Source: Planctomycetota bacterium
GTDB lineage: Bacteria > Planctomycetota > UBA11346
Assembly (NCBI GenBank): GCA_025055595.1
Contig: JANWWU010000078.1
Span: 16,257-80,256, forward strand
Length of the DNA stretch: 64,000 bases
Reading direction: 5' to 3'
Within the stretch, counting starts at the first letter, position 1; the number at the start of each line of letters is the position of its first letter. The notes beneath the pieces were generated by a model. It made no database searches, was not told the DNA's origin, and saw nothing but the letters and a program-made list of their open reading frames with translations. The position numbers and the translations under genes are program-made. Positions 1,216 through 64,000 of this stretch are shown piece by piece.

Positions 1216-1297
1216 GCCGCACAGTATGCGTTGCTGCCGACCGCGCCAACGCCGCGCCGGGGATGGCTGCGCCGCGCGTCTGCCTAGGATCGGCGTG

Positions 1298-2337: not shown

Positions 2338-5268
<2,931 letters not shown>

Positions 5269-11263: not shown

Positions 11264-11345
11264 CGCGGAATCCCACGCCGTGCCGGAAGCGGTCAAGGCC
11301 CCGCCGTTGACCGGCTGTGACCCCCGCGAGGCTCGGGGCGGCACG

Positions 11346-21724: not shown

Positions 21725-21767
21725 CGCGGCGATTTGCACCGCTCCCCCCCCGGGTACGCTGCCCCCG

Positions 21768-24293
<2,526 letters not shown>

Positions 24294-34646: not shown

Positions 34647-34650
34647 CGGG

Positions 34651-34655
34651 CCTCC
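34651..34655 (-). promoter_or_regulatory. Shine-Dalgarno-like GGAGG, 5 nt upstream of the ATG of the HEAT-repeat gene
   Basis: The minus-strand sequence reads tacGGAGGcccgATG. Upstream of it the frame loses GC3 bias. Confidence 0.4.
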
Positions 34656-34808
34656 GTACTGCAGATCCAGGCGTATGGTTCGAAGTGGCATCGTGCGTGT
34701 CCCTTCCGGCGGCATCAACCCCTGCGCGCGCCAGCGTGCGCGAAGTGTATGACGAGCCCGCGACGCCGCCGCGTCTTGCACCCCCGCTGCCCGGTCAAGA
34801 TACGCGCC

Positions 34809-35705
34809 ATGCCGCGTCGAGAAGGGCAGTCGACGGGGTGGCGGTGGACGCTGGCCCTCTGCGCGCTGCTGGCCGGCGTCGGCCTCAGCCTCTTCGCGCT
34901 GGCCCTCCGCCCGTGCCGCTTCGTCATCGAGCCTGGGGAGTCCGTGGCCTGGGAGCTGACGGTTCGCTCCGCCGCCAGCGGCGAGGCGACGGCCGCGGCA
35001 CGCGCCACCCGCATGGTGATCCGACTGCTCGGGCTGGGCCCGGAGCCCGAAGCGGTCGCCTGGTTCGCTGGGCCGAGCGCGGAGCGGGCCAGCGCCTTCC
35101 ACCTCGCGATGCTGCCCGTCGACGGGGCGCTGCGCCTGCGCACGCCCGAGGGGCGCATCGCGTTGAGCGGGCCCCACTGCCTGGGCTTCGACTTCAACCT
35201 GCTGCCGCTGCCGCCGGGGGCGGAGCAGAGCTGGCGCGCGAGCGTCGTCTGGGCGCCCTTGCCGCCAGACAAGCAGCTGGTGCCGGTCGAGGTCCGCCGC
35301 CTGCGCGCCAACGCTTGGCCCGAGTTCCGCTGCCTGTTTCCGCCGAGCATCGAGTGGGTGGATCCGCACAGCGGACGCTATCGGCAAGTGCGGGGTCTCG
35401 CCGCCACCTACCGCTTCGATACGCTGCGCGGGCTGCCGGTGTGGGCGCTCGTGCGCTGGACGTTGCGCGAGGAGCTGCCGCCGCCGCAGGGCTTCGCGTC
35501 CCGCGACTACGAGTGCGAGCTGCGCTTCCTCGAGCGGCGGAGGCATGGGGAGCCGGCGGCGCTGCGGCAGGCCGCGGCCCTCGCCCAGCGCGTGCACGAG
35601 GCGCGAGCCGCCGGCCAGCGCCCGGCGCTCGCCTGGCTCGCCGCCCTGCAGGCCGCCGGCGAGCCGTTCGCCTCCCTCGCCGGCGCGAGCCCGGAGCGCC
35701 TCTGA
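34809..35705 (+). CDS. hypothetical secreted protein (298 aa)
   Basis: Internal Met MPRREGQSTGWRWTLALCALLAGVGLSLFALAL (signal-like). It is divergent from the HEAT-REC gene. The stop abuts the ATG of the next gene. Confidence 0.55.
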   Translation: MPRREGQSTGWRWTLALCALLAGVGLSLFALALRPCRFVIEPGESVAWELTVRSAASGEATAAARATRMVIRLLGLGPEPEAVAWFAGPSAERASAFHLAMLPVDGALRLRTPEGRIALSGPHCLGFDFNLLPLPPGAEQSWRASVVWAPLPPDKQLVPVEVRRLRANAWPEFRCLFPPSIEWVDPHSGRYRQVRGLAATYRFDTLRGLPVWALVRWTLREELPPPQGFASRDYECELRFLERRRHGEPAALRQAAALAQRVHEARAAGQRPALAWLAALQAAGEPFASLAGASPERL

Positions 35706-36776
35706 ATGCGCTGGGCAGTGGCGCTGCTGATGCTGGCGGCGCTCTCCGCCATGGAACGCGCGATCATCGACGATCCGCGACTGGCGCTCGACTGGCTGCC
35801 GGATCGCCCGTCCCAGCAGGCCTGGCGCGCGCTGTTCGATCCGCATGCGGTGTGGCCCGAGCGCGATGTCGACCTGCTGGCGAGCGCTCACGGCGAGCGG
35901 TTGACGACCTTGTGGGCCGCTCGCCTGTGGTACCGCGGCGAGCCGTGGACGCGGCGCGAGCACGAGCCGATCAACCTGCGGCGCTGGCGCGTCGTCGACC
36001 GCGCCGTGCGCCTGGCGATCATCCGCGACCTGCGCTGGCGGCGCGATCCGCGCCTCGTCGCGGTGCTGCTCGGCTTCCTGCAGCGCGAATCCGAGGACGT
36101 CGGCCTGGTGGTCAACGCCCTGGCCGCGCTGTCGCTGATCGACCCGCCCGCCGGACGCCAGGCGGCGCTGCGCCTCGCCGATCCGCGTCGCCCCGATCGC
36201 CTGCCAGCCGCCGGCCTGCCGGGGGCCCGCAGCGCGGCCCTCGCCCTCGCCCTGGAGAGCGGGCCGCTCGACGAGCCGCTGCAGGCCGCGCTCTCCTGGG
36301 CCCTGCTGACCGCCGACGGCGGCGAGCGCATCGCCGCCCTCGGCCGGCTGCCGCGCGGCGCGGTCCCCGAGCTGTGCGGTGCGGCGCTGCAGCGCCTGCT
36401 CGAGCCCGCGCAGCGGGGCGCGCTGCGCGACGAGGATCTCGCGGCCGGGGTGCTGATCTGCGCGCGCCTCGAGGGCCCGCTCGGCGAACGCGTGCTGCAG
36501 GCGCTGGGCACGCTGGCGGTGGCGGCGCCGCGCGAGCTCGCCTGCGCCGCCGCCACCGCCTTGGCGCGCGTCGTCAGCTGGCGCCACGCGATCGATCCCC
36601 AGCCCCTGCTCGAGCGCTTCCAGCGCGACCCCGATCCCTCGGTGCGGCACGCGTTGGCCGCGGCCCTGGTGCGCATCGCTCCCGATCGCCTGGCGTCGCG
36701 CCGCGAGGCCGCGGCCTGGGCGGTGCTCGCAGCCCACCGCCTGGCCCTGCAGGACTGGGACTGGCATCGCCCATGA
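35706..36776 (+). CDS. secreted HEAT-repeat protein
   Basis: MRWAVALLMLAALSAMERA is signal-like. It is followed by repeated Ala/Leu-rich HEAT-like helical pairs. The stop overlaps the rsmB-like ATG. Confidence 0.6.
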   Translation: MRWAVALLMLAALSAMERAIIDDPRLALDWLPDRPSQQAWRALFDPHAVWPERDVDLLASAHGERLTTLWAARLWYRGEPWTRREHEPINLRRWRVVDRAVRLAIIRDLRWRRDPRLVAVLLGFLQRESEDVGLVVNALAALSLIDPPAGRQAALRLADPRRPDRLPAAGLPGARSAALALALESGPLDEPLQAALSWALLTADGGERIAALGRLPRGAVPELCGAALQRLLEPAQRGALRDEDLAAGVLICARLEGPLGERVLQALGTLAVAAPRELACAAATALARVVSWRHAIDPQPLLERFQRDPDPSVRHALAAALVRIAPDRLASRREAAAWAVLAAHRLALQDWDWHRP

Positions 36777-49660: not shown

Positions 49661-52300
<2,640 letters not shown>

Positions 52301-52343
52301 CATGCGCGCAAGCATGGGCGGCCGGGGCTCGTGCAACGCGCGC

Positions 52344-53282
52344 TCAGCGGCGCGTGGGCGGTTCGCCAGCCAGCTCGCGCACGGTCAGGCCGTAGGCCCG
52401 CGCCAGGGCCTCCTCGGCCGCGCAGCCGGCACGCAGCGCGGCAAGCAAGACCGGAAAGGCGCGGCGCCTGCTTGGATGCAGCAGGGCGCCGACCACCGCC
52501 GTCGCCAGCTGGGCATCGAGGGGCTCCTCGTCGGCCAGCAGGCGGGCGAGGGCGACGCTGCCGGCGCAGGCGCGGATCTCGCCGAGGCGGCGCTCGGCCA
52601 ACCCCGTGCCGTCGGCGCGCGCGCGCGCCGCGCCGGCGACGCCGAGGCGCAGCCAGGCCGGCCAGCCAGCGCGCGGCTCGCCGGCGAGCGCGAGCGCGAG
52701 CTCGGCGATCGCCACCGCGAGGCTCGCCCGCGTCTCCCGCTCGGCGATGCGCAGGATGGGCAGCGCCGGGCGCACGACCCGCGCGCGTCCGGGAGCGAGC
52801 GCCGGATGCGCCAGACCCCACGGCGCCAGCAGCAGCGGTCCATGCCAGCGCGGCCAGCGCAGCGGCGCCAGCAGCTCCTGGACATCGCTCAGCGCCCCGC
52901 GCTCCTCGACCGTCGTCGGCCGCGGCCGGCCTTCGCTGGTCAGCGCGGCGAGCGCGGCGCGCGCATCGACGCCCCAGCGCTGCGCCTCGCGCGCCACCCA
53001 GGCGCGCAGAACCGTCGCCAGCGCGCTGTCCTCGGGCAAGGGCTCCGGCAGCGTAAGCAGCATCCGCCACGCGCTCTCGTCTTCGCCCCAGGCGAGCGCG
53101 GCGCCGACGCGCTCGGCCAGCGGCAGCCGCGTCTCGCTGAGGAGGCGCTGGGCGCGCAGCGCGGACGGCAGCATCGCCGCCGGCACGACCACGGGCAGGA
53201 GCTGGCCGGCATAGGACGCAGCGCGCGCATCGAGGCGCGCCGGTGGAAGGGCCAGGGCCAGCGCCAGCGACGCGAGATCCAC
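52344..53282 (-). CDS. hypothetical protein (312 aa, Ala/Leu/Trp-rich)
   Basis: Normal composition. The overlapping ORFs 52300..53070 (-) and 52212..53321 (+) are Arg/Gly shadows. Confidence 0.5.
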   Translation of the reverse strand: MDLASLALALALPPARLDARAASYAGQLLPVVVPAAMLPSALRAQRLLSETRLPLAERVGAALAWGEDESAWRMLLTLPEPLPEDSALATVLRAWVAREAQRWGVDARAALAALTSEGRPRPTTVEERGALSDVQELLAPLRWPRWHGPLLLAPWGLAHPALAPGRARVVRPALPILRIAERETRASLAVAIAELALALAGEPRAGWPAWLRLGVAGAARARADGTGLAERRLGEIRACAGSVALARLLADEEPLDAQLATAVVGALLHPSRRRAFPVLLAALRAGCAAEEALARAYGLTVRELAGEPPTRR

Positions 53283-53283
53283 G

Positions 53284-53379
53284 CTACGGACCGCGGCGGC
53301 GTCCGAGGATCACCACCGTGATGATGGCGGTCACCGCCGCGACTATGACGATCAACGCCACAGGCAGGAGGATGCGCAT
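53284..53379 (-). CDS. possible 31-aa hydrophobic micro-protein (MRILLPVALIVIVAAVTAIITVVILGRRRGP)
   Basis: Found by manual translation; it is below the track length cutoff. It starts 3 nt after the SPFH gene stop and ends 1 nt before the next gene. Coordinates are accurate to about 1 nt. Confidence 0.25.
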   Translation of the reverse strand: MRILLPVALIVIVAAVTAIITVVILGRRRGP

Positions 53380-53382
53380 GCT

Positions 53383-54993
53383 TCACCGCTTGGGTGGCGT
53401 CTCCACCGCTTGCCGCAGCAGGGTGCCCGCCAAGGCATCGAGGGCGCCGCCGGGAGCGCTGACCATCACCTGGGGCGTGATCTGCACCCGACCCTCGGCG
53501 ACCAGCTTGAGCAGTTCGAGCTGGGTCACGGCCTCCTTGCCCAGGGCCTCGACCATCGCGCGGTAGGCGGCAGCGCGGCCCTCGCCGGTGATGCGCTGGT
53601 AGTCGGCCTCGCCCCGCGCTTCGGCAGCGCGCGCCTGCGCCTGCTGCTCCTTGACTTTCACGGCATAGGTCGCCTGCGCCAGGTTGCGCTGCTGCTCGGC
53701 TTCTTCCTGGGCCTTGACGAAGGCGGCGCGCGCCTCTTCAGCCTTGCGCTGCTCGGCATAGAGCGTCTGCTGGTTCTTGGCGACCTCGGTATCGGTCTGC
53801 GTCGCGAGCAGCTTGCGCCCGGCATCGGTGGCGTCGAGATGGATGTTGCCGACATAGACTCCGTCGCAGGTGACGAAATAGCGCGCGAGCTCCGCCTTGA
53901 CCCGCTCGGTGGCGACGCGCTCGACCTGGCTGCGCGCATTGACGAACTCCAGCGCATTCATGCCCTCGGCGACATTGCGGAAGATCGCGCGCACTGTCGG
54001 CAGGATGATCCGCGCTTCCAGCACTTCCAGCTCCTCGTCTTCCTGCTCGTCGCGCATGTGGCGATCGGGATCGCCGAGCAGGGCGACGAGCTGCGGGGCA
54101 TGCGCGGCCTCGACCGCGCAGACGACGCGCACATCGACGGGGAAGGAGAAGCCGTCGCGAGAGCGTACCGTCACCGACCAGTCCTCCTGCTGCGCCGCCG
54201 CGGCAGCGACGCCCTTGCCCGCGCTGCGCGGGCCCTGCTGCTGGTAGGTGTAGACGCGCTGCGTGGTCTTGACGATGGTCGGAGCATAGGCGTGGGTGTT
54301 GATGTAGTAGGCGCCCGGCGGCAGCGGCTCGCGCCAGATCCCGCGGCAGGTGCGGGGCACCAGCGGCACGCCGTTCACCAGCGGGCTTTCGGACGGAGCC
54401 GGAGCGCCCGTGCGTGCAGTGATCACCGCTACCGTACCGGGAGCGACGATCAAGGCGTCGATCGTCTGGATGTCATGCAGCGCCGGGTTGTAGCGATAGG
54501 TGCCGGGCGTCAGTACGGTGGCCTGCGGCCCGCGCTGGCCGCCACCCGCAAAGAAACGCTCGGGATCGAGCATCTCCGTCGCCGAATCCCAGGGCTTGGC
54601 GTAGATCTCGCCCGACGGCAGCGGCTCACCGTCGTGCGCGGTGACGAAACCGAGCTTACCGTGCTCGATGACCATCACCGGCACCTCCTGGACTTCATAG
54701 AGCAGCGGGAAGTAGCCGAAATGCCAGCCTGGACCGAGGATGCGCGCCTGCGGTCCTTGCTCTCCGTGACGCGCGACGATGGCCCCGGGAGGTAAGGGAT
54801 CGCCGAAATACTTGATGACGACGCCAGTGCGATCGGCGGCGATCACCACCGAGGAAGCGAGCGCCAGCCCGGCGAGGAATACCAGCGCGGCGACGGCGTA
54901 GAGCGCGCCACTCAACCACACCGACAAGCGCGCGACGGCGGCATACGCCGCGATCACCGTCGCGAGGATGGTGAACAAAACCAAAAAGAGCAT
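53383..54993 (-). CDS. SPFH/band 7 domain protein, long flotillin-like (FloT/YqiK-like)
   Basis: Two N-terminal TM helices, an SPFH core, and a long EA-rich coiled-coil (AEQRKAEEARAAFVKAQEEAEQQRNLAQATYAVKVKEQQAQARAAEARGEADYQ). Confidence 0.8.
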   Translation of the reverse strand: MLFLVLFTILATVIAAYAAVARLSVWLSGALYAVAALVFLAGLALASSVVIAADRTGVVIKYFGDPLPPGAIVARHGEQGPQARILGPGWHFGYFPLLYEVQEVPVMVIEHGKLGFVTAHDGEPLPSGEIYAKPWDSATEMLDPERFFAGGGQRGPQATVLTPGTYRYNPALHDIQTIDALIVAPGTVAVITARTGAPAPSESPLVNGVPLVPRTCRGIWREPLPPGAYYINTHAYAPTIVKTTQRVYTYQQQGPRSAGKGVAAAAAQQEDWSVTVRSRDGFSFPVDVRVVCAVEAAHAPQLVALLGDPDRHMRDEQEDEELEVLEARIILPTVRAIFRNVAEGMNALEFVNARSQVERVATERVKAELARYFVTCDGVYVGNIHLDATDAGRKLLATQTDTEVAKNQQTLYAEQRKAEEARAAFVKAQEEAEQQRNLAQATYAVKVKEQQAQARAAEARGEADYQRITGEGRAAAYRAMVEALGKEAVTQLELLKLVAEGRVQITPQVMVSAPGGALDALAGTLLRQAVETPPKR

Positions 54994-55096
54994 GAAGTTG
55001 ATGCTAGACAGGAAACCGAGAGCACAAGGCCGCCGACCGCTGCAAGCGGCGGAGAACAGCCCTAGGCAAGCTGGCGAGGCGCGGCATCATAGCCGC

Positions 55097-55756
55097 ATGT
55101 TTGCGCGGCGACGCACCGATCAGGTGTTCGCGACCCTGCAGCAAGTGCAACGGCGGATCACCGAGCAGGGTGGCGGCCATGTCGCGGCGGCGGTCACCCC
55201 CGCCGGCGTGCCGCTGCCGCAGCGCCCGCAGACCGCCATGCGGCAGACCGCCGTGCCGTCCCGCAGCGAGGCGGAGCAGGCGGCCATCGCGCCGCCGGTG
55301 CTGCCGCCGGGAGTCGGCGCGCATCAGCGCTATCGCGTCGAGCTCTCCGGGGCGATGGTCAGCCTGCTCGTCGTCTGCTGGCTGCTGTCGCTGGCCCTCG
55401 CCGTCATCATCACCGTCTGGGTGATGCGGACGCCGGCGACGCCCGCCTCATCTCCGGCTTCCGTCGCCGCTTCCGGGCCCGCAGGCGGTGCCGCATCGAG
55501 CCCGCGGTGGAAGCTGGTCGTCGCCAGCGAGCGCGCCAGCGCCGAGGCACGGCAGCGCTTCCTCGCCGAGCGGGCCTTCCTCAATCAGGTCGCAGAGCGC
55601 AACGGCTGGCCCCCCTTGTTCGACATCGAAGAGGGCGCCAACGGCCATCTGCTCCTGGTCTTCGGCCGTCAAGGGCTCGACAAAGCGGAATGGGTCGATT
55701 TCACTGCCAAGTTGAGCCGGCGGCATCCGGGAGCCACCTGGGTCGAGCTGCGCTAG
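55097..55756 (+). CDS. hypothetical single-pass membrane protein
   Basis: Internal Met MFARRRTDQVF... and a TM segment MVSLLVVCWLLSLALAVIITVWV. The track start at 54968 would overlap the divergent SPFH gene start. Confidence 0.45.
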   Translation: MFARRRTDQVFATLQQVQRRITEQGGGHVAAAVTPAGVPLPQRPQTAMRQTAVPSRSEAEQAAIAPPVLPPGVGAHQRYRVELSGAMVSLLVVCWLLSLALAVIITVWVMRTPATPASSPASVAASGPAGGAASSPRWKLVVASERASAEARQRFLAERAFLNQVAERNGWPPLFDIEEGANGHLLLVFGRQGLDKAEWVDFTAKLSRRHPGATWVELR

Positions 55757-55798
55757 CCGCGCTCGGCGCTGGCCGCCTTCGTCCCTGCCAGAGCGTGC

Positions 55799-57058
55799 TC
55801 AAGTCCCCGGGCGCTTCCACACCGGGCCCTGCCCACCGAGCACCGTGGACCCGGGCGGCGGCTTGGGCGCTTCGGGCTTGGGTGCGGCTCCGGCGCTGCC
55901 GGCACCGCCGCCGGCCGGCGGCAGCTCCGGCTGGGTCGCCGCTTTCGCGGCCTTCTCCTCGCGGCTGCGCTGCTCGAGCATCGCCTCGACATCGATGCCG
56001 AGCGCCTTCAAGCGCTTGGCGATGTCGTCCTTGTCGATCGCCTTCTCCCAGACCTCGAGCGGCTCGACCTCCCCGGACTTGACGCGGGCCTCCAGGGCAT
56101 CGTTGAGCAGCTGCATCCCGTACTTGGCGCCGGTCTGCATCGCCGAAGGAATCTGGAAGGTCTTGCCCTCGCGGATCAGCGAGGCGATGCCGCTCGTCAC
56201 GAAGAGGATCTCCAGCGCTGCACAGCGGCCGCCGCCCTTCTTCTTGAGCAAAGTCTGCGAGACGACGCCGCGCAGGCTGCCGGCGAGCATCAGGCGGATC
56301 TGCTCCTGCTCCTCGGCGGGGAACTGATTGATGATGCGATCGACCGTGCTCGCCGCCGTCGAGGTGTGCAGGGTGCCGAAGACGAGGTGTCCGGTCTCCG
56401 CCGTCTCGATGGCGATCCGCGTCGTCTCGAGATCGCGCATCTCGCCGACCAGCACGATATCGGGGTCCTCGCGCAGCGCCGCGCGCAGCGCCGCCGCGAA
56501 GCTTTTCGTGTGGTTATGCACTTCGCGCTGGTTGACCAGGCACTGCTTCATCGGGTGCACGAACTCGATCGGGTCCTCGATGGTGATGATGTGCTCCTTG
56601 CGCGTCGCATTGATATGATCGATCATCGCCGCCAGCGTCGTCGACTTGCCGGAGCCCGTCGGTCCGGTGACGAGCACGAGGCCCTTCTTGAAGTCGCAGA
56701 GACGCATCACGCCCGGCGGCAGGCCGAGCTGCTCGGCGCTGAGGATCTTGTCGGGAATGCGGCGGAACACCGCGCCGATGCCGTAGCGATCGCGGAAATA
56801 GTTGGCGCGGAAGCGCCCGATGCCCTCCAGCGCGTAGGCGAAATCGGTATCGCCGGTCTCTTCCCACTGCTTGCGGTTGCGCTCCGGACAGATCTCGAAG
56901 AGCACCTGCTGCAGCTGTTCACGGCTCAACTTGGGAGCGCCGGCGATCGGCACGATGTCGCCGGAGACACGTACCATCGGCACATGTTCCGAGGTCAGGT
57001 GCAGGTCCGAGCCCTTCTGCTCGGTCATGATCTTGAACAGGTTATCGATCCACGCCAT
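55799..57058 (-). CDS. pilT: type IV pilus retraction ATPase PilT with an extra C-terminal tail
   Basis: Walker A GPTGSGKSTT. AALREDPDIVLVGEMRD. The His box GHLVFGTLHT. The PilT-specific AIRLM-like region (IRLMLAGSL). The tail beyond the PilT core (Lys/Ala/Pro/Gly-rich) is not a PilT domain. Confidence 0.9.
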   Translation of the reverse strand: MAWIDNLFKIMTEQKGSDLHLTSEHVPMVRVSGDIVPIAGAPKLSREQLQQVLFEICPERNRKQWEETGDTDFAYALEGIGRFRANYFRDRYGIGAVFRRIPDKILSAEQLGLPPGVMRLCDFKKGLVLVTGPTGSGKSTTLAAMIDHINATRKEHIITIEDPIEFVHPMKQCLVNQREVHNHTKSFAAALRAALREDPDIVLVGEMRDLETTRIAIETAETGHLVFGTLHTSTAASTVDRIINQFPAEEQEQIRLMLAGSLRGVVSQTLLKKKGGGRCAALEILFVTSGIASLIREGKTFQIPSAMQTGAKYGMQLLNDALEARVKSGEVEPLEVWEKAIDKDDIAKRLKALGIDVEAMLEQRSREEKAAKAATQPELPPAGGGAGSAGAAPKPEAPKPPPGSTVLGGQGPVWKRPGT

Positions 57059-57122
57059 GCTTCGACCCCTTGGCCAGTACTATCGCCTGGCTTGCGGCTT
57101 GGCAATCGCCGGTATTCCCGGG

Positions 57123-60100
57123 CTATTTGACGACGCGCGCCCAGCCGCCGACACCCGTGGTGCTGACGCCGAAGGGCGCGAAAGGCGGTGTCCCTTCTTC
57201 CGTCAGCAAGTCGTAGTTGAATTCATAGATGCGTTGCGGCTCCGAATACACCGCTGGACTCTGCCCATTCCAATGTGCTGCCGGCACGGAGTACCCATAC
57301 ATCCCTACTTTGAACACCTGCAGGTTACCGTTGCGATCCGGACGACGATAGACGAAATTGTTGATGATCGACCGCCACTGGCCGCTGTTGTCGACGAAGC
57401 CGAAGGGCGTCGTGCCGTAAGTCTTGAAGCTGTCGAGCAGGAAGGCCTGCGTGTAACGGCGCGTATCCATGACCACGAGGCTGCCAAGGTACATCAAGGC
57501 GCAGCCATTCCAGTTCTCGAGCAAGAGGAAACTGTCGACGAAAGCCGCGGTCTGCCCCTCGGCGAGACGGTCGCGGGTCGTCGGCAGATTGTGCGTCGCG
57601 ATCGCGGCATTGTATTCGGTATTCGCGGCCCGAGGGCCGAAGGAGCTCATCGTCGCCAGCGTTCCGCTGCCGGTGACGCTCGGCGGGCCGCTGACATTGC
57701 TCACTGTCAACCCCGGAATCTGCGCATTCCCATCCAGCCAGGCATTTGATAAGAAGGTGATCGTATCCCCCATCAGGGCAACGGGCGTGAAGCGGTAGGC
57801 CACCGCGCCCTTGAGCGTGGTGCGGAAGCGATCGACATTGCAGTTGCCTTGCACATAGAGGGCATGCGGGGTGACGATCGTCGTCTTCCCCAGGCCGAAC
57901 TCGGGGATCGGAGTCACTTGCCAATCGTAGGCCGTCGTCGGGCCGATCGGGCGGCTGGCCGCGACACTGCGGGTGCCATCGTAGCCCCAGTCGAAGCGGT
58001 GGGCGTTGACGATGCGAACTCCGTGATGGAACTGCTGTGGCTTGAGCGGCAGGTCTTCCTTGAGATCGGCCGCCGCATAGGGCTGCAGGCGGTGGCCACG
58101 CGCGCTGTTCAGCCAAGCATAGGAGCCCTGCGGTGGCGGCGGGGGACTGCGCAGGCTCGCGTCATTGCCGATCTCCGGCGGGGCATCGCCCATATCTGCG
58201 CGGGAGTTCGGCAAGGGACTCAACCAGTGCGGGCTCCAGGGATTGATGCCCGTCGTGTCGGCACCGGCAGGCAGGCGCTCCGACTTGAGCCAGGGATTGA
58301 GATTCGGATTCCACGGATAACGATTGGTGCGCGCAGCATAGATCAGGCCAGAGAAGCGCTCTCGCAGCACATAATCCTGCGCCGGTGGCGAAGGATCGAC
58401 ATCCATGTGCCCCGGCAAGCGATCCGCCATCGCCTGGCTGATCGTCCGCGAACGCAGGTAGTTCTGGAGGGCCTCGATATCGAGCGTCAGCAGCGTGGTC
58501 TTGGCGAAGGCTTCGCGGATCGTCGTCTTTGTGAAGTTCTCGGCGGCGCTGGTCACCGGGTCCTTCTCGACGAGGTCGCGCTCGACCGTCGGCAAGTGCG
58601 GACTGGCATTCGGGCGCCGGACATCCCACCAGCGCGACTGGCTCCAGAACTCGCGGGCATTCCAGATCCAATCTTCGCTGGCGATGCGCCGCCCGGTCGC
58701 GGGATCGGTCCAGGTGAAGAAGTCTTCGGTGATCTCGCGCGTACCGAACCACACCTGATATTGGCTGGCCAGGTAGCGCCCCATCAGATCTTGACCGCTG
58801 CTGTCCGTATCCCAGTCCGTCGCATCGATGACATCGTCGGGGAACGGCAGGCTGGTCTGAATCCGCAAGTTGGTGAAGGTCGCCGTCACGACCTGGTTGA
58901 CATCCCCCGACTGAATGGCTGGACCGATCAGCAGGTGGCTGCCCCAGTTGCTGATGTCGAGCGTTCCCGGAACGCTCGTCCAGGTCGTGCCATTGGTCGA
59001 ATACGCGAAGGAGAGCGTCGATCCGCTCTGGCTGATCCGCAACCACAGACCGGTGATCGTGCTCGGTACGGAGATGTCGTCGGTCAGCCGGAAGTTGCCG
59101 GTCTGCAGACCGGCATTGCCCGTCGGATTGACGGTGCTGCTGGTCCAGGTAGTGCTGCCGGGATGCACATCGGGACGCCAACTGCGGGTCAACGGCCAGG
59201 TCGTCGGGCTGTTGCCTGCCCAGCTCGCCGGCCACAGCGCGCCTTGCGTCGGCACATACTGCGGCACCGCCGCGCTCAACCAGCTCTGGCTGTTGCTGAT
59301 CCAGCCGTTCAAGTCGAAGGTGATCGGCCGGCTGCTGCGCTCGATGCTGAATGTTAGACCGCCGTTAGAGACGAAGTCAGGCACGGTCGGATTGGCAGGA
59401 GTCGCCGGATCCGGGCAAGCGCTGTCGGCCGGCGCTGAGGGGGTGGGGCCAGTCCACGGCGATGAGGGGGTGGCGGTGTTGATCTCCGTGATCGAGAGGC
59501 CGGTGATCGCGGTGAGATCGGCGGCGGTGGCGTTCACGACCGTCCCATTCTTGTTGATGCGCAGCTGCCCGGCCGTGATCCAAGCCGTCGTCGGGCCGCC
59601 GACGCTCAAGGTTTGGGTCTCCGAGCTTCCCGACACCCAGGCGCCGTAGCTCGCGTTGTACAGCGTGTAGCGCAGCTGCGTGCGGTTGCCGCTGCTGCCG
59701 CCGAACAGGTACCAGCGATTGTCTGCAGGCGGCGTTCCACCCGTTAGGTAGCTGGTATTGATCTGGATCTGCCGGTTGTCGATGCTCGCCACGGTATACT
59801 TAGTTGTGCCGGTCGCCGCGCTGTAGATGCGCAGGTAACGATTGTGGTCGGTGCCATCGGCATCATTGATGTCATCGAACGGCGCGACATGATTCTGTAG
59901 CTGCACGGTCAGCACTTGCGTCGCCATGCGATACTTGCGCTTGTTGTACCAGGCGGTGCGCGTGCCTTGGAAGGTGCCGATGCTGAAGGGATCGAGGATC
60001 GTCCAGATCTTGCCGCCACCGACATCCTTGCTCATCGGCCCGCTGTAGGGCGTCGGCTGCTGGTTCCAAGTCACTGCCGAGGTCTGCAAGCCGCTGACTT

Positions 60101-63100
60101 CGGTCTGAATCGAACCGATGGTAACGGGAGTCAAGTCGGTCTGCAACAAGCGCGCAGTGCGCGTCACGCCCGCCACCGTATTCGGATTCTCGGCGATTTC
60201 ACCGCGGCTATTGACAGGGGTGCCGCTGGTCTCTGTGCCGTTGCCGATGTAGTACACACCGAGGGTGCGCAGTTCCTGCAGGTGGCGCTCGCCGCGCCGT
60301 TCGGTGAAGACGCCGCGCGTCGGTGAGAAGCCGATGAAGGCATACTGGGCCGCGCCGTTGAGCAGCGGCGAGAGGCCGCTCGAGCCATCGCGGATCATCA
60401 GCCCCACTTTCATCTGCTGCGGCCCCTGGATCTGGAACGGTCGATCGATGCGGACGATCGCCTGCTGGAAGTTGCTGCGCGGGATCCCCACTGCGCTGCG
60501 CGGCGGATTGAAGGCCGATGACGGGATCAAGGTTTCGCTGCCGAGCACCGGCTCGACAGTCTGCCAGCCGATGAACAGGCTTGGAGACGCGTTGCTGCCG
60601 TCGACCGCATAATCGATCTGGATCGGCACTGCCCTGTTCGCATGCAGGCGGATGGGGTTCTCGACCAGCGACGACACCCCCCAGTTGGTGAAGACCAGCC
60701 GCCCATCGACCCAGATGCGTACCCACTGGTGGCTGGCACTGCTGTTGTTGATCGTATAGCGGCTGCCGCTCGACGGAGAATTGCTGGTATAGGCGCGAAT
60801 GTAGTAGAGGTTGGTCGCCGTCGGGGTCAGGAAGCCCTCGAAACGCACGGAGCGCCGCTGATTGGCCAGGGAGGGCTGGATGCCGCTCGCTGCATTCGCG
60901 ACATTCGGCGTGGCGATGATGCCGGAACTCGGGGCAGTCAGCGAAACGATCGCGCTTCCGACAGGGCCGCCGACGAAGGACTGGCTGCCAACGCCGCTCG
61001 GGCGGTCAACGCACACCGTCACGCGCAAGCCATTGCGCGTCGTATCGATCGCGTGCCGGCCGAGGTGCACGAAACGCCAGTTCTGAGCATAGAAATATGG
61101 TTTGCGGCGGTAATAATCATCATAGCCAAGGTAGTTGTTGAGCGGGGTCACGGTATTCATCATCGCGGCGTTCTGGGCGCCGCTCATGATCAGCCGCCCC
61201 CCTGGGTAATAGGCGGCGTATTTCGCGATCTCGCTGTCGTTGATGCGCGCCGGATGCAAGGGGTCGTCCTGCCAAGTAATGCTGGTGCCATTGAAATTCC
61301 CCGAATAGCCCCAGGGATCCGCCGTCGGCGGTGCGCATACTTCGGCGATATGCGCGGCAAAAAAGGGAAAGTTGCTCGGATACCAATGCTTGCCGTAGGC
61401 ATAGGGCATCCAACGCGTGTCATGCGGAGGCACGATCCCAGCATTTTCCGTCCCCGGCCAGTGATCGACGCTCGGTGCCGGTCGTTCGCGAATGATCAGT
61501 CCGTTGATCGGTGCTTCTGTCGGGCGCTGCCCACTGAGCGTACGGATGTACCACCCCGTGCCATCCGGATAGCGGACCATGTAGTTTCCCGCGCCCATCG
61601 CATAACGCAGGTACTGCCCCGGCTCTTCGACCACCGGGGCGTTACCGCCAGCGCCATCAGGAAAGGCGGGGAAGCCCGGCAGAGTGGCTCTGGGGTAATC
61701 CGTCGTCGTCGTCCCATCGGCGCGGACGAAGAGCGGCCGGGCGAACTCATGCTCATCCGTCGCTTCGTCGCCATCCTGATCATGGTACTCCAAGCGCTGC
61801 GGTTCGAAGCCGCGATTGCGCATCCGTTCCGGCAGTTGCTTGACCTGCTGGCCGGTCACGCGCGTGCGCGCTTTGCCGTTGAAGCCCGGCGCCGACTGCT
61901 GGACGCTGATGACCGCCCAGCGTTGATCTGCGGGGCGCTGCAGATCGCGGGCATCATTCGCGATCTGCGGTCCGCTGAGCGCGCCCATGTAGGGCACCCC
62001 GCGAATCGCTACCCCATTGATTGTGACGCGATTGTCCTGAGCCCCCAGGCTATTCTCCGTGATCGCCGCACAGCCATCCTTGATCCGGTAGGGGTTGATG
62101 CGCCGCCCGTGGTCGGTCGCTTCGGCGAGGCTCGCGAGGGAAGCGCCTGGCGGATCGAGCGGCAACGGCATGCTGGCGATCGGCGTCGTCAGGTCGTAGG
62201 AGGCGAGCGCCGACCAAGTGATCGGCGTCAGACCGGTCGTCGCGTTCGGATTGCCATGGAGACCCGGCGAGCTGTTGTCGGTGAGCGGGAAACCATTGAT
62301 GATGCTGTACATCAGTGGCTTCGACAGGCGGAAGATGCCATCGACGCCATTGACTCGCACCGCTTGATTGTAGATATCCGGTCCGATCTGAGTCACTGCT
62401 GGCGCCAGCGTTCCAGTCAGGGGGCCGACGCGGGCGACGCGATCGTTGGCCTTCAGCCCGGAGCCGAGGTAGAGGGCGCCGTTGGTGTGCACGGAGCCCC
62501 GAATCGTCACCTGGTCGGCGTGCGAGAGCTCGAGGTCGCCCTTGGCGCCGCGTGCGGCGTAGAAGATCACATAGCGGAACAAGGGCTCGCGAATGACCGC
62601 CGCATAGCGCACGCCCTGCACCGCGACCGCCGGCCGCAGCACCTGCTGCCCGCTCGCGGTGAGTCCTGGCGGTGCCTGTGGATCGACGCCGATGCGCGCT
62701 TCGCCGGCGATGCGGAACATGTAGTTGACATCATTGGTCTGGAACGCTTGCTCGCCGCCAAGCGTCGTCTGCGTCGGCGGCGTCCAGTTCGGATCCGGAC
62801 TGGGGTTGGTGATGTGGAACACCGGATTGCCGCTGGCGTCGGTCGGCGGGGTGCGCACCGGCTCGATCTTCCAGCGCACTTCCGCGTCGCCGATGATGTC
62901 CACCCCGTAGTTGTTCTGCCAGCGCGCGATCTCGACCGGATCGCCCTGGCCGGCAAGCCGGACGACCTCGGCTTCGCGCCGCGAGAGGACGGAATCGAGC
63001 GCCGCAAACGCACGCTGATGCAGCGTCTGTTCCTGCGACGCGCGGGCGGACTGCGCCGCGCTCTCCATCGAAGCGAGCACGAGGACGGCGGCCAAAGTGA

Positions 63101-63188
63101 AAGCTCCCATCGCCACCGCGATCGCATTGCCGGAGCGAGCGTGCCTACGATGACGCATAGTGCCTCCCCGCGCACGGATGGTGCGCAT
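57123..63188 (-). CDS. giant (2021 aa) secreted or pilus-associated megaprotein with a PilX_N-like pseudopilin N-terminus and lectin-like (PA14-like, ConA/LamG-like) beta domains
   Basis: The N-terminus MRHRRHARSGNAIAVAMGAFTLAAVLVLASMESAAQSARASQEQTLHQRAFAALDSVL resembles the PilX N-terminal domain (hydrophobic helix then ...Q.AFQAAEAGL). HQWVRIWVDGRLVFTNWG is PA14-like. WLRISQSGSTLSFAYSTNGTTWTSV...SNWGSHLLIGPAIQSG is ConA-like/LamG. The overall composition is Thr/Gly/Ser/Asn/Pro/Trp-rich. It is a single uninterrupted ORF with no competing real ORF. The start is the track M or M11 (63158). Confidence 0.7.
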   Translation of the reverse strand: MRTIRARGGTMRHRRHARSGNAIAVAMGAFTLAAVLVLASMESAAQSARASQEQTLHQRAFAALDSVLSRREAEVVRLAGQGDPVEIARWQNNYGVDIIGDAEVRWKIEPVRTPPTDASGNPVFHITNPSPDPNWTPPTQTTLGGEQAFQTNDVNYMFRIAGEARIGVDPQAPPGLTASGQQVLRPAVAVQGVRYAAVIREPLFRYVIFYAARGAKGDLELSHADQVTIRGSVHTNGALYLGSGLKANDRVARVGPLTGTLAPAVTQIGPDIYNQAVRVNGVDGIFRLSKPLMYSIINGFPLTDNSSPGLHGNPNATTGLTPITWSALASYDLTTPIASMPLPLDPPGASLASLAEATDHGRRINPYRIKDGCAAITENSLGAQDNRVTINGVAIRGVPYMGALSGPQIANDARDLQRPADQRWAVISVQQSAPGFNGKARTRVTGQQVKQLPERMRNRGFEPQRLEYHDQDGDEATDEHEFARPLFVRADGTTTTDYPRATLPGFPAFPDGAGGNAPVVEEPGQYLRYAMGAGNYMVRYPDGTGWYIRTLSGQRPTEAPINGLIIRERPAPSVDHWPGTENAGIVPPHDTRWMPYAYGKHWYPSNFPFFAAHIAEVCAPPTADPWGYSGNFNGTSITWQDDPLHPARINDSEIAKYAAYYPGGRLIMSGAQNAAMMNTVTPLNNYLGYDDYYRRKPYFYAQNWRFVHLGRHAIDTTRNGLRVTVCVDRPSGVGSQSFVGGPVGSAIVSLTAPSSGIIATPNVANAASGIQPSLANQRRSVRFEGFLTPTATNLYYIRAYTSNSPSSGSRYTINNSSASHQWVRIWVDGRLVFTNWGVSSLVENPIRLHANRAVPIQIDYAVDGSNASPSLFIGWQTVEPVLGSETLIPSSAFNPPRSAVGIPRSNFQQAIVRIDRPFQIQGPQQMKVGLMIRDGSSGLSPLLNGAAQYAFIGFSPTRGVFTERRGERHLQELRTLGVYYIGNGTETSGTPVNSRGEIAENPNTVAGVTRTARLLQTDLTPVTIGSIQTEVSGLQTSAVTWNQQPTPYSGPMSKDVGGGKIWTILDPFSIGTFQGTRTAWYNKRKYRMATQVLTVQLQNHVAPFDDINDADGTDHNRYLRIYSAATGTTKYTVASIDNRQIQINTSYLTGGTPPADNRWYLFGGSSGNRTQLRYTLYNASYGAWVSGSSETQTLSVGGPTTAWITAGQLRINKNGTVVNATAADLTAITGLSITEINTATPSSPWTGPTPSAPADSACPDPATPANPTVPDFVSNGGLTFSIERSSRPITFDLNGWISNSQSWLSAAVPQYVPTQGALWPASWAGNSPTTWPLTRSWRPDVHPGSTTWTSSTVNPTGNAGLQTGNFRLTDDISVPSTITGLWLRISQSGSTLSFAYSTNGTTWTSVPGTLDISNWGSHLLIGPAIQSGDVNQVVTATFTNLRIQTSLPFPDDVIDATDWDTDSSGQDLMGRYLASQYQVWFGTREITEDFFTWTDPATGRRIASEDWIWNAREFWSQSRWWDVRRPNASPHLPTVERDLVEKDPVTSAAENFTKTTIREAFAKTTLLTLDIEALQNYLRSRTISQAMADRLPGHMDVDPSPPAQDYVLRERFSGLIYAARTNRYPWNPNLNPWLKSERLPAGADTTGINPWSPHWLSPLPNSRADMGDAPPEIGNDASLRSPPPPPQGSYAWLNSARGHRLQPYAAADLKEDLPLKPQQFHHGVRIVNAHRFDWGYDGTRSVAASRPIGPTTAYDWQVTPIPEFGLGKTTIVTPHALYVQGNCNVDRFRTTLKGAVAYRFTPVALMGDTITFLSNAWLDGNAQIPGLTVSNVSGPPSVTGSGTLATMSSFGPRAANTEYNAAIATHNLPTTRDRLAEGQTAAFVDSFLLLENWNGCALMYLGSLVVMDTRRYTQAFLLDSFKTYGTTPFGFVDNSGQWRSIINNFVYRRPDRNGNLQVFKVGMYGYSVPAAHWNGQSPAVYSEPQRIYEFNYDLLTEEGTPPFAPFGVSTTGVGGWARVVK

Positions 63189-64000
63189 TCAACGAGAAAT
63201 GCCGATGGGTTGTGAACCCAAGGTGTTGAAGATCTGATCGATATCGTAGCCCGATGAACGAGCGCGCATCGCCAGCGTCGTTTCGACGACGCGCGAGATG
63301 AGAACCCGCGGATCCGTCGCCAGCGGTCGAGCGAAGTACAAGCGCACCCGTACTTGGTTGACGCTCAGCGTCGTCACCGTGTTCGCGCCGGCATCGACAG
63401 TGCGATAGGTATCGAAGACGACGCGGACGACATGATCGGAGAGCACGCGATCGACCACCATCCCCACTTCTTCGCTGGCGATCGCGCCGCTGTCGGTGGC
63501 GACCTGCGAGATTCGCTGTCCGACTTCGACCCCCAAGGGAATGCTGGAAGCTTGCGGACGGCGATAGGCCCGCACCAGCCGTCCGGTGCCGAACGCGACG
63601 GGACTGCGGACGACCGCATACATGTATTCGCGCAGGCGTTCCGGGGCCTCCATATACGCGCGATAGCGTGCAGCGACGGTCGGCGCTCCCGGGATCGTCG
63701 CCGGTATCTGGGTGATATCCGGCTTGCGCATGCTCTCCCAGCTCAGTTTGATCGGGGCGCTCTCGGCGTCCGAGGGGTCGTACCACCCGCCATCGAGCGT
63801 CACCCCGTAGGGAATGCCGGGCGTACGTTCCACCCAGCCGGTCGACGTCTCGCGAAAACCGCTCGCGAAAAAGACACCCAAGCGGTCGTGCTGCCCCGGC
63901 AGGCGCCAGTCTTCAGCTGTCGTTTCGTACCCCATGTTGTCGAGCGTGAAGTTCAACAGCGGCAGCGAACGCCGCGATGGCAACTGTGCCAAGTAGGCTG
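63189..64000 (-). CDS. hypothetical protein, partial (the 5' end lies beyond the right window edge); directly upstream of the giant PilX_N gene
   Basis: The track ORF 63189..63992 starts at a TTG, but the frame stays open through to position 64000 (...QPYLAQLPSRRSLPLLNFTLDNMGYETT...). The composition is normal. The C-terminus is ...VNQVRVRLYFARPLATD...GISR. Confidence 0.5.
   Translation of the reverse strand, partial: AYLAQLPSRRSLPLLNFTLDNMGYETTAEDWRLPGQHDRLGVFFASGFRETSTGWVERTPGIPYGVTLDGGWYDPSDAESAPIKLSWESMRKPDITQIPATIPGAPTVAARYRAYMEAPERLREYMYAVVRSPVAFGTGRLVRAYRRPQASSIPLGVEVGQRISQVATDSGAIASEEVGMVVDRVLSDHVVRVVFDTYRTVDAGANTVTTLSVNQVRVRLYFARPLATDPRVLISRVVETTLAMRARSSGYDIDQIFNTLGSQPIGISR

What the first reader, a model, noticed from the sequence alone, without database searches (positions are those of the whole stretch)
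55799..64000. A 2021-aa PilX_N-headed lectin-like megaprotein encoded directly upstream of pilT
The 6.1-kb ORF at 57123..63188 begins with a pseudopilin/PilX_N-like hydrophobic helix. The remaining roughly 1950 residues are beta-rich and Thr/Asn/Gly/Trp-rich, with PA14-like and concanavalin-A/LamG-like segments. The gene lies on the same strand as, and 64 nt upstream of, the pilus retraction ATPase pilT. A further co-directional gene begins off-window upstream. pilT itself carries an extra low-complexity tail beyond its core domain. A PilX_N head fused to a megadalton lectin array is not a canonical minor pilin or a PilY1. It looks like a pilus-tip or pilus-displayed giant adhesin coupled to the retraction motor. 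That would be a distinctive carbohydrate- or cell-contact system in a PVC-type genome. If real, it is the most novel locus in the window.
Basis: partly seen in the sequence, partly recalled or inferred. Interest (0 to 1): 0.8.

Follow-up and report, generated by a model that had tools for sequence, protein, structure and literature searches.

The report
Giant pilus-tip adhesin next to pilT
A 2,021-residue protein of an uncultured planctomycete most likely is the capping subunit of a retractable type IV pilus with a very large adhesin scaffold, including a sugar-binding-type domain, inserted into it; it is an oversized version of tip pilins already known elsewhere.

The parts
63189..64000 (-). 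C-terminal 269 residues of a 462-aa prepilin-like gene in the 'PilJ' position. Its N-terminus MKTACG|YTLLEV lies off-window (L001 7414-8802). A 247-aa prepilin in the 'PilI' position (MAGRDG|FSLIEV) precedes it at L001 6663-7406.
   Evidence: The 247-aa protein passes TIGR02532 (18.6 bits against a cut-off of 16.3). A homologue of the 462-aa gene sits directly upstream of the giant gene in all loci that have upstream flank.
63129..63188 (-). Basic leader, residues 1-20, ending in R18-x-G20. This is a putative class III (prepilin peptidase) cleavage site, G|NAIAV.
   Evidence: R18 and G20 are conserved in at least 90% of 53 aligned homologues. The N-termini are listed. Cleavage itself is not shown.
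62949..63128 (-). Alpha-1 helix, residues 21-80: about 22 hydrophobic residues without Glu5, then the conserved 'ALAAVEAVLARRE' motif.
   Evidence: AF2 predicts a helix at 22-80. The consensus matches PilX_N at 16.5 bits and GspK at 18.7 bits, E 0.001. hhalign against the five E. coli pseudopilins is best to GspK, P 8e-4 against 0.018 or worse for the others.
62592..62909 (-). Small beta-sheet after alpha-1, residues 94-199 (strands 94-99, 102-111, 155-166, 188-199). Putative pilin globular sheet.
   Evidence: AF2 model 1, pLDDT mostly 60-87. No PDB match was obtained for this part.
61044..62591 (-). Conserved N-module, residues 200-715 (motifs EPLFRYVIFYA..GDLELSH..VHSNGAIYLG, GVDGIFRLSK, NDSRD, GLIIRERP).
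   Evidence: Aligned in 67-68 of 69 homologues up to about residue 600 and in 50-58 over residues 600-750. It is also present in the 900-1500-aa relatives. No Pfam or PDB match.
60489..60881 (-). PA14 domain, about residues 770-900. The usual 'DDG' (DcisD calcium/sugar site) is replaced by 'HQW'.
   Evidence: Motif read; compare 'SDDGVRL' in the relative P0126.
59322..60164 (-). Confidently modelled beta-rich domain of unknown fold, residues 1009-1289, Thr-rich (15%).
   Evidence: AF2 model 2, pLDDT about 85-93. No significant Foldseek match. Present in only 31-33 of 69 homologues.
58857..59063 (-). Possible ConA-like/LamG-type beta-sandwich, residues 1376-1444, Trp/Ser/Thr-rich.
57168..58946 (-). 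Conserved C-module, residues 1415-2007 (RYLASQYQV, FNGLIYAARTNRYPWNP, TPNxLYVQG, LENW, GSLVVMDxRRY, GTPPFAPFG). It contains a beta-solenoid.
57126..57167 (-). Fixed-length C-terminal tail, residues 2008-2021 (VSTTGVGGWARVVK). Proposed in-cis donor beta-strand for the N-terminal pilin sheet.
   Evidence: The tail is 14 aa in 83 of 109 relatives and 15-16 aa in 20 more, while total lengths range from 904 to 2623 aa. It is near-invariant yet pLDDT is about 28 in the C-terminal half-model. The role is inferred from PMC13533445.
55799..57058 (-). pilT, the type IVa pilus retraction ATPase, 419 aa, with a 75-aa low-complexity C-terminal tail.
   Evidence: Orthologues at 73-87% identity are adjacent to the triad in 13 of 28 loci.

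Best explanation
The 2021-aa protein is the apical (PilK/GspK/PilX-class) minor pilin of a type IVa pilus. It is encoded as the third gene of a PilI-PilJ-PilK-type tip-complex operon.

Proposed mechanism (inferred):
1. Prepilin peptidase removes the basic leader after Gly20.
2. The hydrophobic alpha-1 helix, which lacks Glu5 as expected for the first subunit of a fibre, bundles with the alpha-1 helices of the two upstream pilins. Together they form the complex that primes assembly and ends up at the pilus tip.
3. The rest of the protein is one enormous insertion (about 1,800 residues) between the small pilin sheet and the last 14 residues. It consists of a conserved scaffold (the N-module plus a ComZ-like beta-solenoid C-module) interrupted by a cassette bearing PA14 and other beta domains.
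4. The fixed-length, near-invariant C-terminal tail folds back as the last strand of the pilin sheet (in-cis beta-strand addition). This locks the adhesin to the tip so that it can bear load.
5. The cassette binds a surface or a glycan, and PilT-driven retraction then pulls on it.

The protein would thus combine in one chain the roles that PilX and PilY1 play separately in Pseudomonas or Myxococcus.

Shown: the ORF, its conservation, the synteny, the leader and helix motifs, the PA14 fold, the solenoid resemblance and the pilT linkage. Inferred: processing, tip location, the cis strand, ligand binding and coupling to retraction.
For: - Two canonical prepilins with Glu5 lie directly upstream. 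The stop of the second abuts the giant gene's ATG.
- The J-like pilin precedes the giant gene in every related locus that has upstream flank. The I-like pilin is next to it in most and also in the shorter relatives.
- The family-wide leader is R-x-G followed by about 20 hydrophobic residues and no Glu5.
- PilX_N is the commonest Pfam hit among the N-termini. The family consensus matches the PilX_N profile over positions 1-50 of 51. Its top NCBIfam hit is GspK, in register. hhalign prefers GspK over GspG, H, I and J.
- AF2 predicts a 59-residue alpha-1 helix followed by four strands.
- The tail length is fixed at 14-16 residues in 103 of 109 relatives. The tail is conserved but left unplaced when the N-terminal half is absent.
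- Core-only relatives of 904-953 aa lack the cassette. Others carry PA14, Laminin_G_3, CBM_6/35, CBM_5_12 or GH115_C in the middle region.
- pilT is adjacent in 13 of 28 loci, on either side of the triad. No terminator separates it from the giant gene here.
- No PilY1/PilC beta-propeller appears in any locus annotation.
- Framework: PilI-J-K synteny and cis or trans strand addition (PMC13533445).
Against: - No HMM for a pilin family reaches its cut-off on this protein.
- The globular pilin domain has no detectable homologue by sequence or Foldseek.
- The two halves were modelled separately, so the helix/sheet/tail contact was never tested.
- Residue +1 after the Gly is usually Asn, which is unusual for prepilins.
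- pilT is absent from about half of the loci.
- This PA14 lacks the DcisD sugar site.
- No major pilin, PilB/C/M-Q set or prepilin peptidase was identified next to the locus. Only a secretin fragment lies about 8 kb upstream, at the contig end.
- A 220-kDa tip protein must pass the secretin, and nothing here addresses that.
Confidence: 0.62

Rival explanations
1. It is the GspK-like cap of a type II secretion-type pseudopilus, or of a non-retractile type IV filament. It acts in the periplasm or at the secretin, for example as a piston tip or a dock for substrates. The pilT neighbour would then be unrelated gene-order conservation.
For: The consensus N-terminus hits the T2SS GspK model best, and hhalign agrees. 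A secretin gene is on the same contig. pilT is missing from about half of the loci. The first pilin gives weak hits to GspI/XpsI.
Against: pilT (TIGR01420, a type IVa family) is adjacent in 13 of 28 loci, on either side of the triad and at 73-87% identity. That is far beyond chance for one gene in a genome. No GspK alpha-domain (T2SSK) hit was found. No gspC/L/M or gspE/F genes appear in any locus. Carbohydrate-binding cassettes make more sense outside the cell.
Confidence: 0.13
2. It is not a pilin. The N-terminal helix is an uncleaved signal-anchor, and the protein is a membrane-tethered surface or periplasmic beta-helix enzyme or adhesin, for example a polysaccharide lyase or hydrolase with PA14. 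It merely sits next to pilin genes.
For: No pilin HMM passes threshold. Beta-helix hits include lyases, glycosidases and tailspike depolymerases. PA14 is common in glycosidases. NCBI annotates the protein only as 'PA14 domain-containing protein'.
Against: The conserved R-x-G motif sits exactly before the hydrophobic stretch. There is strict synteny with two Glu5 prepilins. The N-terminus is GspK/PilX-type rather than generic transmembrane. No catalytic family hit was found. The fixed-length C-terminal tail is unexplained by this model.
Confidence: 0.1
3. It is a ComZ-like DNA receptor at the tip of a competence pilus. The solenoid would bind DNA and PilT retraction would import it.
For: ComZ is the top structural match. 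ComZ binds DNA and is essential for natural transformation (PMC6561018). PilT-class retraction motors are implicated in type IV pilus-mediated DNA uptake (established knowledge).
Against: The inserted cassettes are carbohydrate-binding-type modules: PA14, CBM_6/35, CBM_5_12, Laminin_G_3. There is no sequence similarity to ComZ. Each genome holds 2-3 paralogous sets, which resembles adhesin diversification. No competence genes appear in the loci.
Confidence: 0.07

Closest known systems
ComZ of Thermus thermophilus (PDB 6QVI; PMC6561018)
   Different: ComZ is about 550 aa with a roughly 380-aa solenoid, and it binds DNA. Here the insertion is about 1,800 aa, with an extra conserved N-module and a PA14/beta-domain cassette. 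There is no sequence similarity. The phylum and the partner pilins differ.
PilK-family apical minor pilins (GspK, PilX/PilK) within PilI-PilJ-PilK tip initiation complexes (PMC13533445)
   Same: The third gene of an I-J-K operon. The N-terminus lacks Glu5 while I and J have it. The best (sub-threshold) HMM and hhalign matches are to PilX_N and GspK. A conserved extreme C-terminus could be the last strand of the sheet.
   Different: GspK is about 330 aa, with an alpha-domain inserted mid-sheet. PilX/PilK are small and receive the strand in trans from PilY1/PilC. Here there is no alpha-domain hit, no PilY1 gene, and a roughly six-fold larger protein.
CpaL/TadG of Tad pili and MshQ of MSHA pili (PMC13533445)
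   Same: Large tip proteins whose extreme C-terminus is predicted to complete a pilin-like sheet. In CpaL this happens in cis, with about 470 residues in between that were partly dispensable for piliation.
   Different: The filament classes differ (Tad T4c, MSHA) and so do the inserted domains. CpaL is about 600 aa and MshQ about 1,200 aa, and MshQ is a separate non-pilin protein.
PilY1/PilC tip adhesins
   Same: Large (over 1,000 aa) tip-located adhesins that work with minor pilins and with PilT-driven retraction. Some bacteria, such as Myxococcus, have several paralogous sets per genome.
   Different: PilY1/PilC lack a pilin N-terminus and have a C-terminal beta-propeller. No propeller was found here by Pfam or fold search.
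Modular pilins of Streptococcus sanguinis (PilB with a vWA module; a lectin-module pilin) (PMC8179133)
   Same: A pilin moiety fused to an adhesive module that is displayed on the filament.
   Different: In those proteins the module is grafted onto the C-terminus of a canonical Glu5 pilin of modest size. Here the module is an internal insertion in a K-type pilin, with the C-terminus apparently returning to the pilin domain.
Verru_Chthon cassette proteins A-D (TIGR02596, TIGR02598 to TIGR02600; content recalled from memory)
   Same: A PVC-superphylum gene cassette that combines a large protein with several prepilin-like proteins. The upstream pilins give weak hits to cassette proteins B, C and D.
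   Different: The giant protein gives no hit to any NCBIfam model of that cassette. The relationship is untested beyond that.

Membership tests
Type IV pilin-like proteins (class III signal peptide) | A short basic leader ending in Gly (or Ala) at position -1, directly followed by about 20 hydrophobic residues | tested here: met
   MRHRRHARSG|NAIAVAMGAFTLAAVLVLA. R18 and G20 are at least 90% conserved in 53 homologues.
Type IV pilin-like proteins (class III signal peptide) | Glu at position +5 and a match to the N_methyl / TIGR02532 motif | tested here: not met
   The giant protein has no Glu5 and no N_methyl or TIGR02532 hit. To my knowledge the absence of Glu5 is typical of GspK-type apical pilins. 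The two upstream pilins do have Glu5, and the first passes TIGR02532.
Type IV pilin-like proteins (class III signal peptide) | Cleavage and N-methylation by a prepilin peptidase | not testable with these tools
   No experiment was possible. No peptidase A24 gene was looked for outside the locus.
Pfam PilX_N (PF14341) | Score at or above the gathering threshold (25.5 bits) | tested here: not met
   There is no hit on the protein itself. Seven of 53 homologue N-termini hit, best E 0.005. The consensus scores 16.5 bits over profile positions 1-50 of 51.
GspK (NF037980 / Pfam T2SSK) | Full-length match including the alpha-domain | tested here: not met
   Only the first about 50 residues match, at 18.7 bits against a cut-off of 130. 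hhalign gives probability 25% and P 8e-4 for the N-terminal 43 columns, which is better than for GspG/H/I/J. There is no T2SSK hit.
PilK-class apical pilin of a PilI-J-K tip complex (PMC13533445) | Position as the third gene after two Glu5 minor pilins | tested here: met
   The J-like pilin precedes the giant gene in all loci with upstream flank. The I-like pilin is upstream in most and downstream in the L006 type.
PilK-class apical pilin of a PilI-J-K tip complex (PMC13533445) | The last beta-strand of the pilin sheet is supplied by an extreme C-terminus (in cis or in trans) | tested here: inconclusive
   There is a fixed-length (14-16 aa), near-invariant tail. It is unplaced (pLDDT about 28) when the N-terminal half is absent. 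No full-length or complex model could be run.
ComZ-like solenoid tip pilins | A beta-solenoid domain inserted before the last strand of the pilin fold | tested here: inconclusive
PilY1/PilC | C-terminal beta-propeller (Neisseria_PilC domain) and no pilin N-terminus | tested here: not met
PA14 domain (PF07691) | HMM score at or above 24 bits, and the PA14 beta-barrel fold | tested here: met
   24.4 to 27.6 bits. Foldseek E is 1.4e-6 to 1e-3 against RsgI, Flo5, anthrax PA, MpIBP and Epa PA14 domains. Homologues score 32-54 bits.
PA14 lectins (flocculin/Epa/MpIBP type) | DcisD calcium- and sugar-binding motif | tested here: not met
   The sequence reads ...SASHQWVRIWVDG... where PA14 lectins have DDG. 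The relative P0126 has SDDGVRL. Motif knowledge is from memory.
Concanavalin A-like / LamG superfamily | HMM or fold match above threshold | tested here: inconclusive
PilT/PilU type IVa pilus ATPase (TIGR01420) | Score at or above 319 bits | tested here: met
   447.5 bits over residues 4-344.

The most novel reading that the evidence does not exclude
These planctomycetes use a retractile type IV pilus as a 'fishing line' for polysaccharides. A single giant tip subunit would replace both PilX and PilY1. Its swappable carbohydrate-binding cassette would capture a glycan, and PilT retraction would reel it to the cell. This would be a molecular basis for the dextran-binding pili-like fibres and the macromolecule uptake reported for Planctomycetes (PMC5394234). 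The 2-3 paralogous tip sets per genome would give different specificities.
Probability: 0.15. Interest if true: 0.8.

Novelty: new variant of a known kind. Interest (0 to 1): 0.5.

Why it matters
If correct, this is the most extreme known case of an apical minor pilin that carries its adhesin as an internal insertion: about 1,800 residues, against about 380 in ComZ and about 470 in CpaL. It would be a natural PilX-PilY1 'fusion' in a type IVa-like system.

It gives a clean natural test of the recently proposed cis/trans beta-strand-addition rule for tip-complex licensing. The fixed 14-residue tail is a precise target for deletion.

It shows an insertion point where PA14, CBM6/35, CBM5/12 and LamG modules are exchanged, which is useful for engineering tip display.

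It also offers a concrete candidate for glycan capture by pili in Planctomycetota, a phylum whose surface fibres are poorly understood at the molecular level.

Current annotation hides all of this. The NCBI call starts inside the hydrophobic helix and names the protein only 'PA14 domain-containing protein'.

Tried and rejected
- Exact-sequence lookup of the 2021-aa product found nothing, because NCBI's call starts at residue 32. Lookup of P0001 worked.
- Alignments of 68 full-length sequences failed. I used 32.
- A local MAFFT run on all 70 sequences timed out.
- PDB sequence searches found nothing significant for either upstream pilin or for the N-terminal profile. The best hit was a type IV pilin, PilE1, at E 0.37.
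- Foldseek against PDB found only PA14 for the N-terminal half. For the C-terminal half it found nothing (best E 0.049, spurious long hairpins of MACPF pores).
- I considered PilY1 and rejected it: there is no propeller.
- I rejected the T2SS GspK alpha-domain: there is no hit.
- I rejected a frameshift or assembly artefact: intact orthologues exist in independent assemblies.
- I tested the idea that paralogues within one genome differ in Pfam-detectable cassettes. It did not hold: all seven paralogues checked carry PA14.
- A profile search with the 900-1,000-aa subfamily, meant to find cultured hosts, returned only six metagenomic proteins.
- The promoter/terminator scan and an RNA fold of the giant-gene/pilT spacer showed nothing.
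That key contact therefore remains untested.

Full report
OBSERVATION. The ORF at 57123..63188 on the minus strand is real: 2021 codons, GC3 of 0.805, and a predicted mass of 220 kDa (so not a megadalton). A word-indexed search of 5.8 billion proteins found 70 relatives of 1,200-2,600 aa. One of them is the 100%-identical NCBI product 'PA14 domain-containing protein [Planctomycetota bacterium]' from GCA_026415635.1, contig JAOAGS010000016.1. Orthologues at 73%, 62% and 54% identity, and others down to about 30%, most of them aligning over nearly the whole length, come from independent assemblies. This excludes a chance ORF and a frameshift artefact. pilT (55799..57058, minus strand) scores 447.5 bits on TIGR01420 against a cut-off of 319. 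It starts 64 nt after the big ORF's stop and carries a 75-residue Ala/Pro/Gly/Lys-rich tail beyond the family match. No terminator-like or promoter-like site separates the two genes.

WHAT LIES UPSTREAM. The window stops inside the preceding gene. The contig extension (L001; L001 position x corresponds to window position 71991-x) shows that gene to be 462 aa. It begins MKTACG|YTLLEVAIASVLFFAAIAIVL. Before it lies a 247-aa gene that begins MAGRDG|FSLIEVIITLSILVAALLLIV. Both are textbook class III (prepilin) N-termini with Glu at +5. The first passes TIGR02532 at 18.6 bits against a cut-off of 16.3. The second gene's stop codon abuts the giant gene's ATG.

The giant protein's own N-terminus is MRTIRARGGTMRHRRHARSG|NAIAVAMGAFTLAAVLVLASME. 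That is a basic leader, a Gly, about 22 hydrophobic residues and no Glu5. Across 53 aligned homologues, R18 and G20 are at least 90% conserved. The consensus reads R-x-G-N-A-L-V-L-A-L-G..., followed by a conserved 'ALAAVEAVLARRE'. To my knowledge, two Glu5 pilins followed by a larger pilin without Glu5 is the GspI-GspJ-GspK / PilV-PilW-PilX pattern. The I-J-K gene order is reported to be almost invariant across type IV filaments (PMC13533445).

HOW STRONG IS THE PILIN CALL? No pilin HMM reaches threshold on the giant protein. The weak signals all point the same way:
- PilX_N is the commonest Pfam hit among homologue N-termini (7 of 53, best E 0.005).
- The family consensus matches PilX_N over profile positions 1-50 of 51, at 16.5 bits against a cut-off of 25.5.
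- The consensus's top NCBIfam hit is T2SS GspK, in register, at E 0.001.
- hhalign of the family's first 215 residues against the five E. coli pseudopilins prefers GspK (P 8e-4) over GspG, H, I and J (P 0.018-0.086).
- AlphaFold2 on residues 1-1050 (32-sequence alignment, mean pLDDT 67) gives a 59-residue helix (22-80) followed by strands at 94-99, 102-111, 155-166 and 188-199. That is a pilin-like start.

I therefore treat 'K-type pilin head' as likely but not proven.

ARCHITECTURE. BLAST coverage over 69 homologues shows two conserved modules: an N-module (residues 1 to about 610-715) and a C-module (about 1415-2021). A less conserved middle lies between them.

An exhaustive phmmer search with the C-module against 1.84 billion representative proteins found only 133 proteins at E of 1e-3 or better. 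Among them is a second tier of 900-1,560-aa proteins with the same leader, N-module, C-module and tail. Two of these (904 and 953 aa) have the N- and C-modules joined directly. Others carry, in the intervening region, PA14 (79 bits), Laminin_G_3 (59 bits), CBM_6/CBM_35 (52 and 36 bits) or GH115_C (79 bits). Precomputed annotations add CBM_5_12 and GLEYA. The family is thus a conserved scaffold with an insertion region for carbohydrate-binding-type modules.

All family members end at a fixed distance after a G-x-P-P-x-x-P-x-G motif. The distance is 14 residues in 83 of 109 sequences, 15 in 16 and 16 in 4, while total lengths range from 904 to 2,623 aa. In this protein the tail is VSTTGVGGWARVVK. 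It is among the most conserved segments, yet it is the least confident part of the half-model (pLDDT about 28). That is what one expects if its partner lies in the absent N-terminal half or in another subunit.

Ellison et al. (PMC13533445) show that the last strand of the PilK sheet is supplied in one of two ways. It comes in trans from the last ~10 residues of PilY1/PilC, or in cis by the PilK homologue itself. The cis cases are GspK, CpaL, and by modelling Thermus ComZ and the V. cholerae competence pilin. In several of them a large insertion separates the sheet from the donor strand. The planctomycete protein fits that description with an insertion of about 1,800 residues.

CONTEXT ACROSS GENOMES. 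A scan of 185,579 species-representative genomes returned 25 loci, all in Planctomycetota MAGs and many from lake metagenomes. Seven MAGs carry two or three loci each. tblastn over all 34 fetched loci shows the J-like pilin directly upstream of the giant gene wherever upstream flank exists. It shows the I-like pilin beside it in most. Shorter-family loci also keep Glu5 pilin neighbours.

pilT orthologues at 73-87% identity are adjacent in 13 of 28 distinct loci. Seven lie immediately downstream of the giant gene. Six lie upstream of the pilin genes, one of them on the opposite strand. In four of the seven MAGs with several sets, exactly one set lies next to pilT; in the other three, none does within the fetched flanks. 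So the linkage to the retraction motor is recurrent and non-random, but not obligatory. No PilY1/PilC-like propeller gene, and no T2SS-specific gene, appears in any annotated locus. Apart from a secretin fragment about 8 kb upstream at the contig end, the neighbours are housekeeping genes: Maf, a metallophosphatase and an aminotransferase upstream; Band_7 and MutS downstream.

MECHANISM (best explanation, confidence about 0.6). The three genes encode a PilI-PilJ-PilK-type tip/initiation complex of a type IVa pilus. After leader cleavage, the Glu5-less alpha-1 helix of the giant subunit caps the helix bundle. Its scaffold (the N-module plus the ComZ-like solenoid) projects along the fibre axis and carries the PA14/beta-domain cassette. 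The C-terminal 14 residues return to complete the pilin sheet and lock the adhesin on under load. PilT retraction then pulls the cell towards, or the ligand into, the cell. The gene content and motifs are shown. Everything about processing, location, the cis strand and ligand binding is inferred.

RIVALS. I considered three: a T2SS-type pseudopilus cap (0.13), a non-pilin membrane-anchored beta-helix enzyme or adhesin (0.10), and a ComZ-like DNA receptor (0.07). Their evidence and refutation tests are given in the Rival explanations section.

NOVELTY AND SCORE. The kind is known: an apical minor pilin with an inserted functional domain and a returning C-terminal strand (ComZ, CpaL/TadG). Pilins with lectin or vWA modules are known too (PMC8179133). 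Four things are new here:
- the scale of the insertion;
- the two-module conserved scaffold;
- the exchange of carbohydrate-binding modules in the region between the two conserved modules;
- the apparent replacement of PilY1 in a pilT-linked system, and the restriction (as far as seen) to uncultured Planctomycetota.

I found no paper describing this family; three of the four literature searches were aimed at it. I rate it a new variant of a known kind, with interest 0.5. The most novel reading not excluded is a glycan-'fishing' pilus that would explain the dextran-binding fibres of Planctomycetes (PMC5394234). I give that a probability of about 0.15.

Noticed in passing
window 63095..63188 (-); P0001: The NCBI/PGAP gene call (P0001, 1990 aa) starts at residue 32 of the ORF, in the middle of the hydrophobic helix. 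It removes the basic leader, the R-x-G site and half of alpha-1. Homologues show that the longer N-terminus is the conserved one. This mis-start hides the pilin-like nature of the protein and caused the exact-sequence lookup to fail.
   Followed up: yes
window 56500..64000 versus 50000..56000: The pilin/giant-gene/pilT block has lower G+C (0.61-0.66) than the flanking housekeeping region (0.69-0.78). This could reflect the Thr/Asn/Ser-rich composition or a different evolutionary history. I did not resolve it.
   Followed up: no
L001 14933..16192 (= window 55799..57058): The intact 419-aa pilT ORF is missing from the list of called genes for this contig in the collection's index, although orthologous loci list it as T2SSE.
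   Followed up: partly
window 1..1592: Mapping through L001 gives window position = contig position + 1593. The window therefore seems to start 1,592 bases before the first base of record JAOAGS010000016.1 as held in the collection. No N run or composition break is visible there. The window may come from concatenated contigs or from another version of the assembly.
   Followed up: partly
window 10520..11266 (-): There is another prepilin-type gene (MRGFTLLELLAALGVIVV...) with sub-threshold N_methyl and DUF1559 (SBP_bac_10) hits. To my knowledge DUF1559 pseudopilin-like proteins are expanded in Planctomycetes. It is unlinked to the locus studied.
   Followed up: partly
L001 1..873 (contig end, about 8 kb upstream of the triad, outside the window): A secretin (PF00263, 85 bits) fragment lies at the contig end. 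It is separated from the pilin genes by radical-SAM, FxsA, peptidase M50, metallophosphatase, Maf and aminotransferase genes. The Maf-metallophosphatase-aminotransferase block upstream of the triad is itself conserved in relatives at about 32-62% identity in the giant protein.
   Followed up: partly
L011/L028/L029; L012/L015; L020/L030; L013/L032; L014/L031; L023/L024; L022/L025: Seven MAGs carry two or three paralogous pilin-pilin-giant sets. In four of them exactly one set lies next to pilT. All seven paralogues checked carry PA14, so any difference in specificity is not visible at Pfam level.
   Followed up: partly
pilT tails: window 55799..56026 (-); L005 14062..15303; L008 14598..15797: The low-complexity C-terminal extension of PilT (…PEAPKPPPGSTVLGGQGPVWKRPGT) recurs in the triad-linked pilT genes of two other MAGs whose giant proteins are only about 62% and 34-36% identical. 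It may be a lineage-specific functional appendage. Its function is unknown.
   Followed up: no
L006 13894..14556; L036 12400..14348: Gene order is not fixed. In some loci the small Glu5 pilin follows the giant gene instead of preceding it (L006/L013/L014). In one shorter-family locus both pilins follow it (L036).
   Followed up: partly
window 2338..5268 (-), 21666..24293 (+), 49661..52336 (-), 32244..36767 (-): The rest of the window is ordinary chromosome: SecA, GyrA and MutS, plus a 1,507-aa HEAT/TPR-repeat ORF of unknown role.
   Followed up: no
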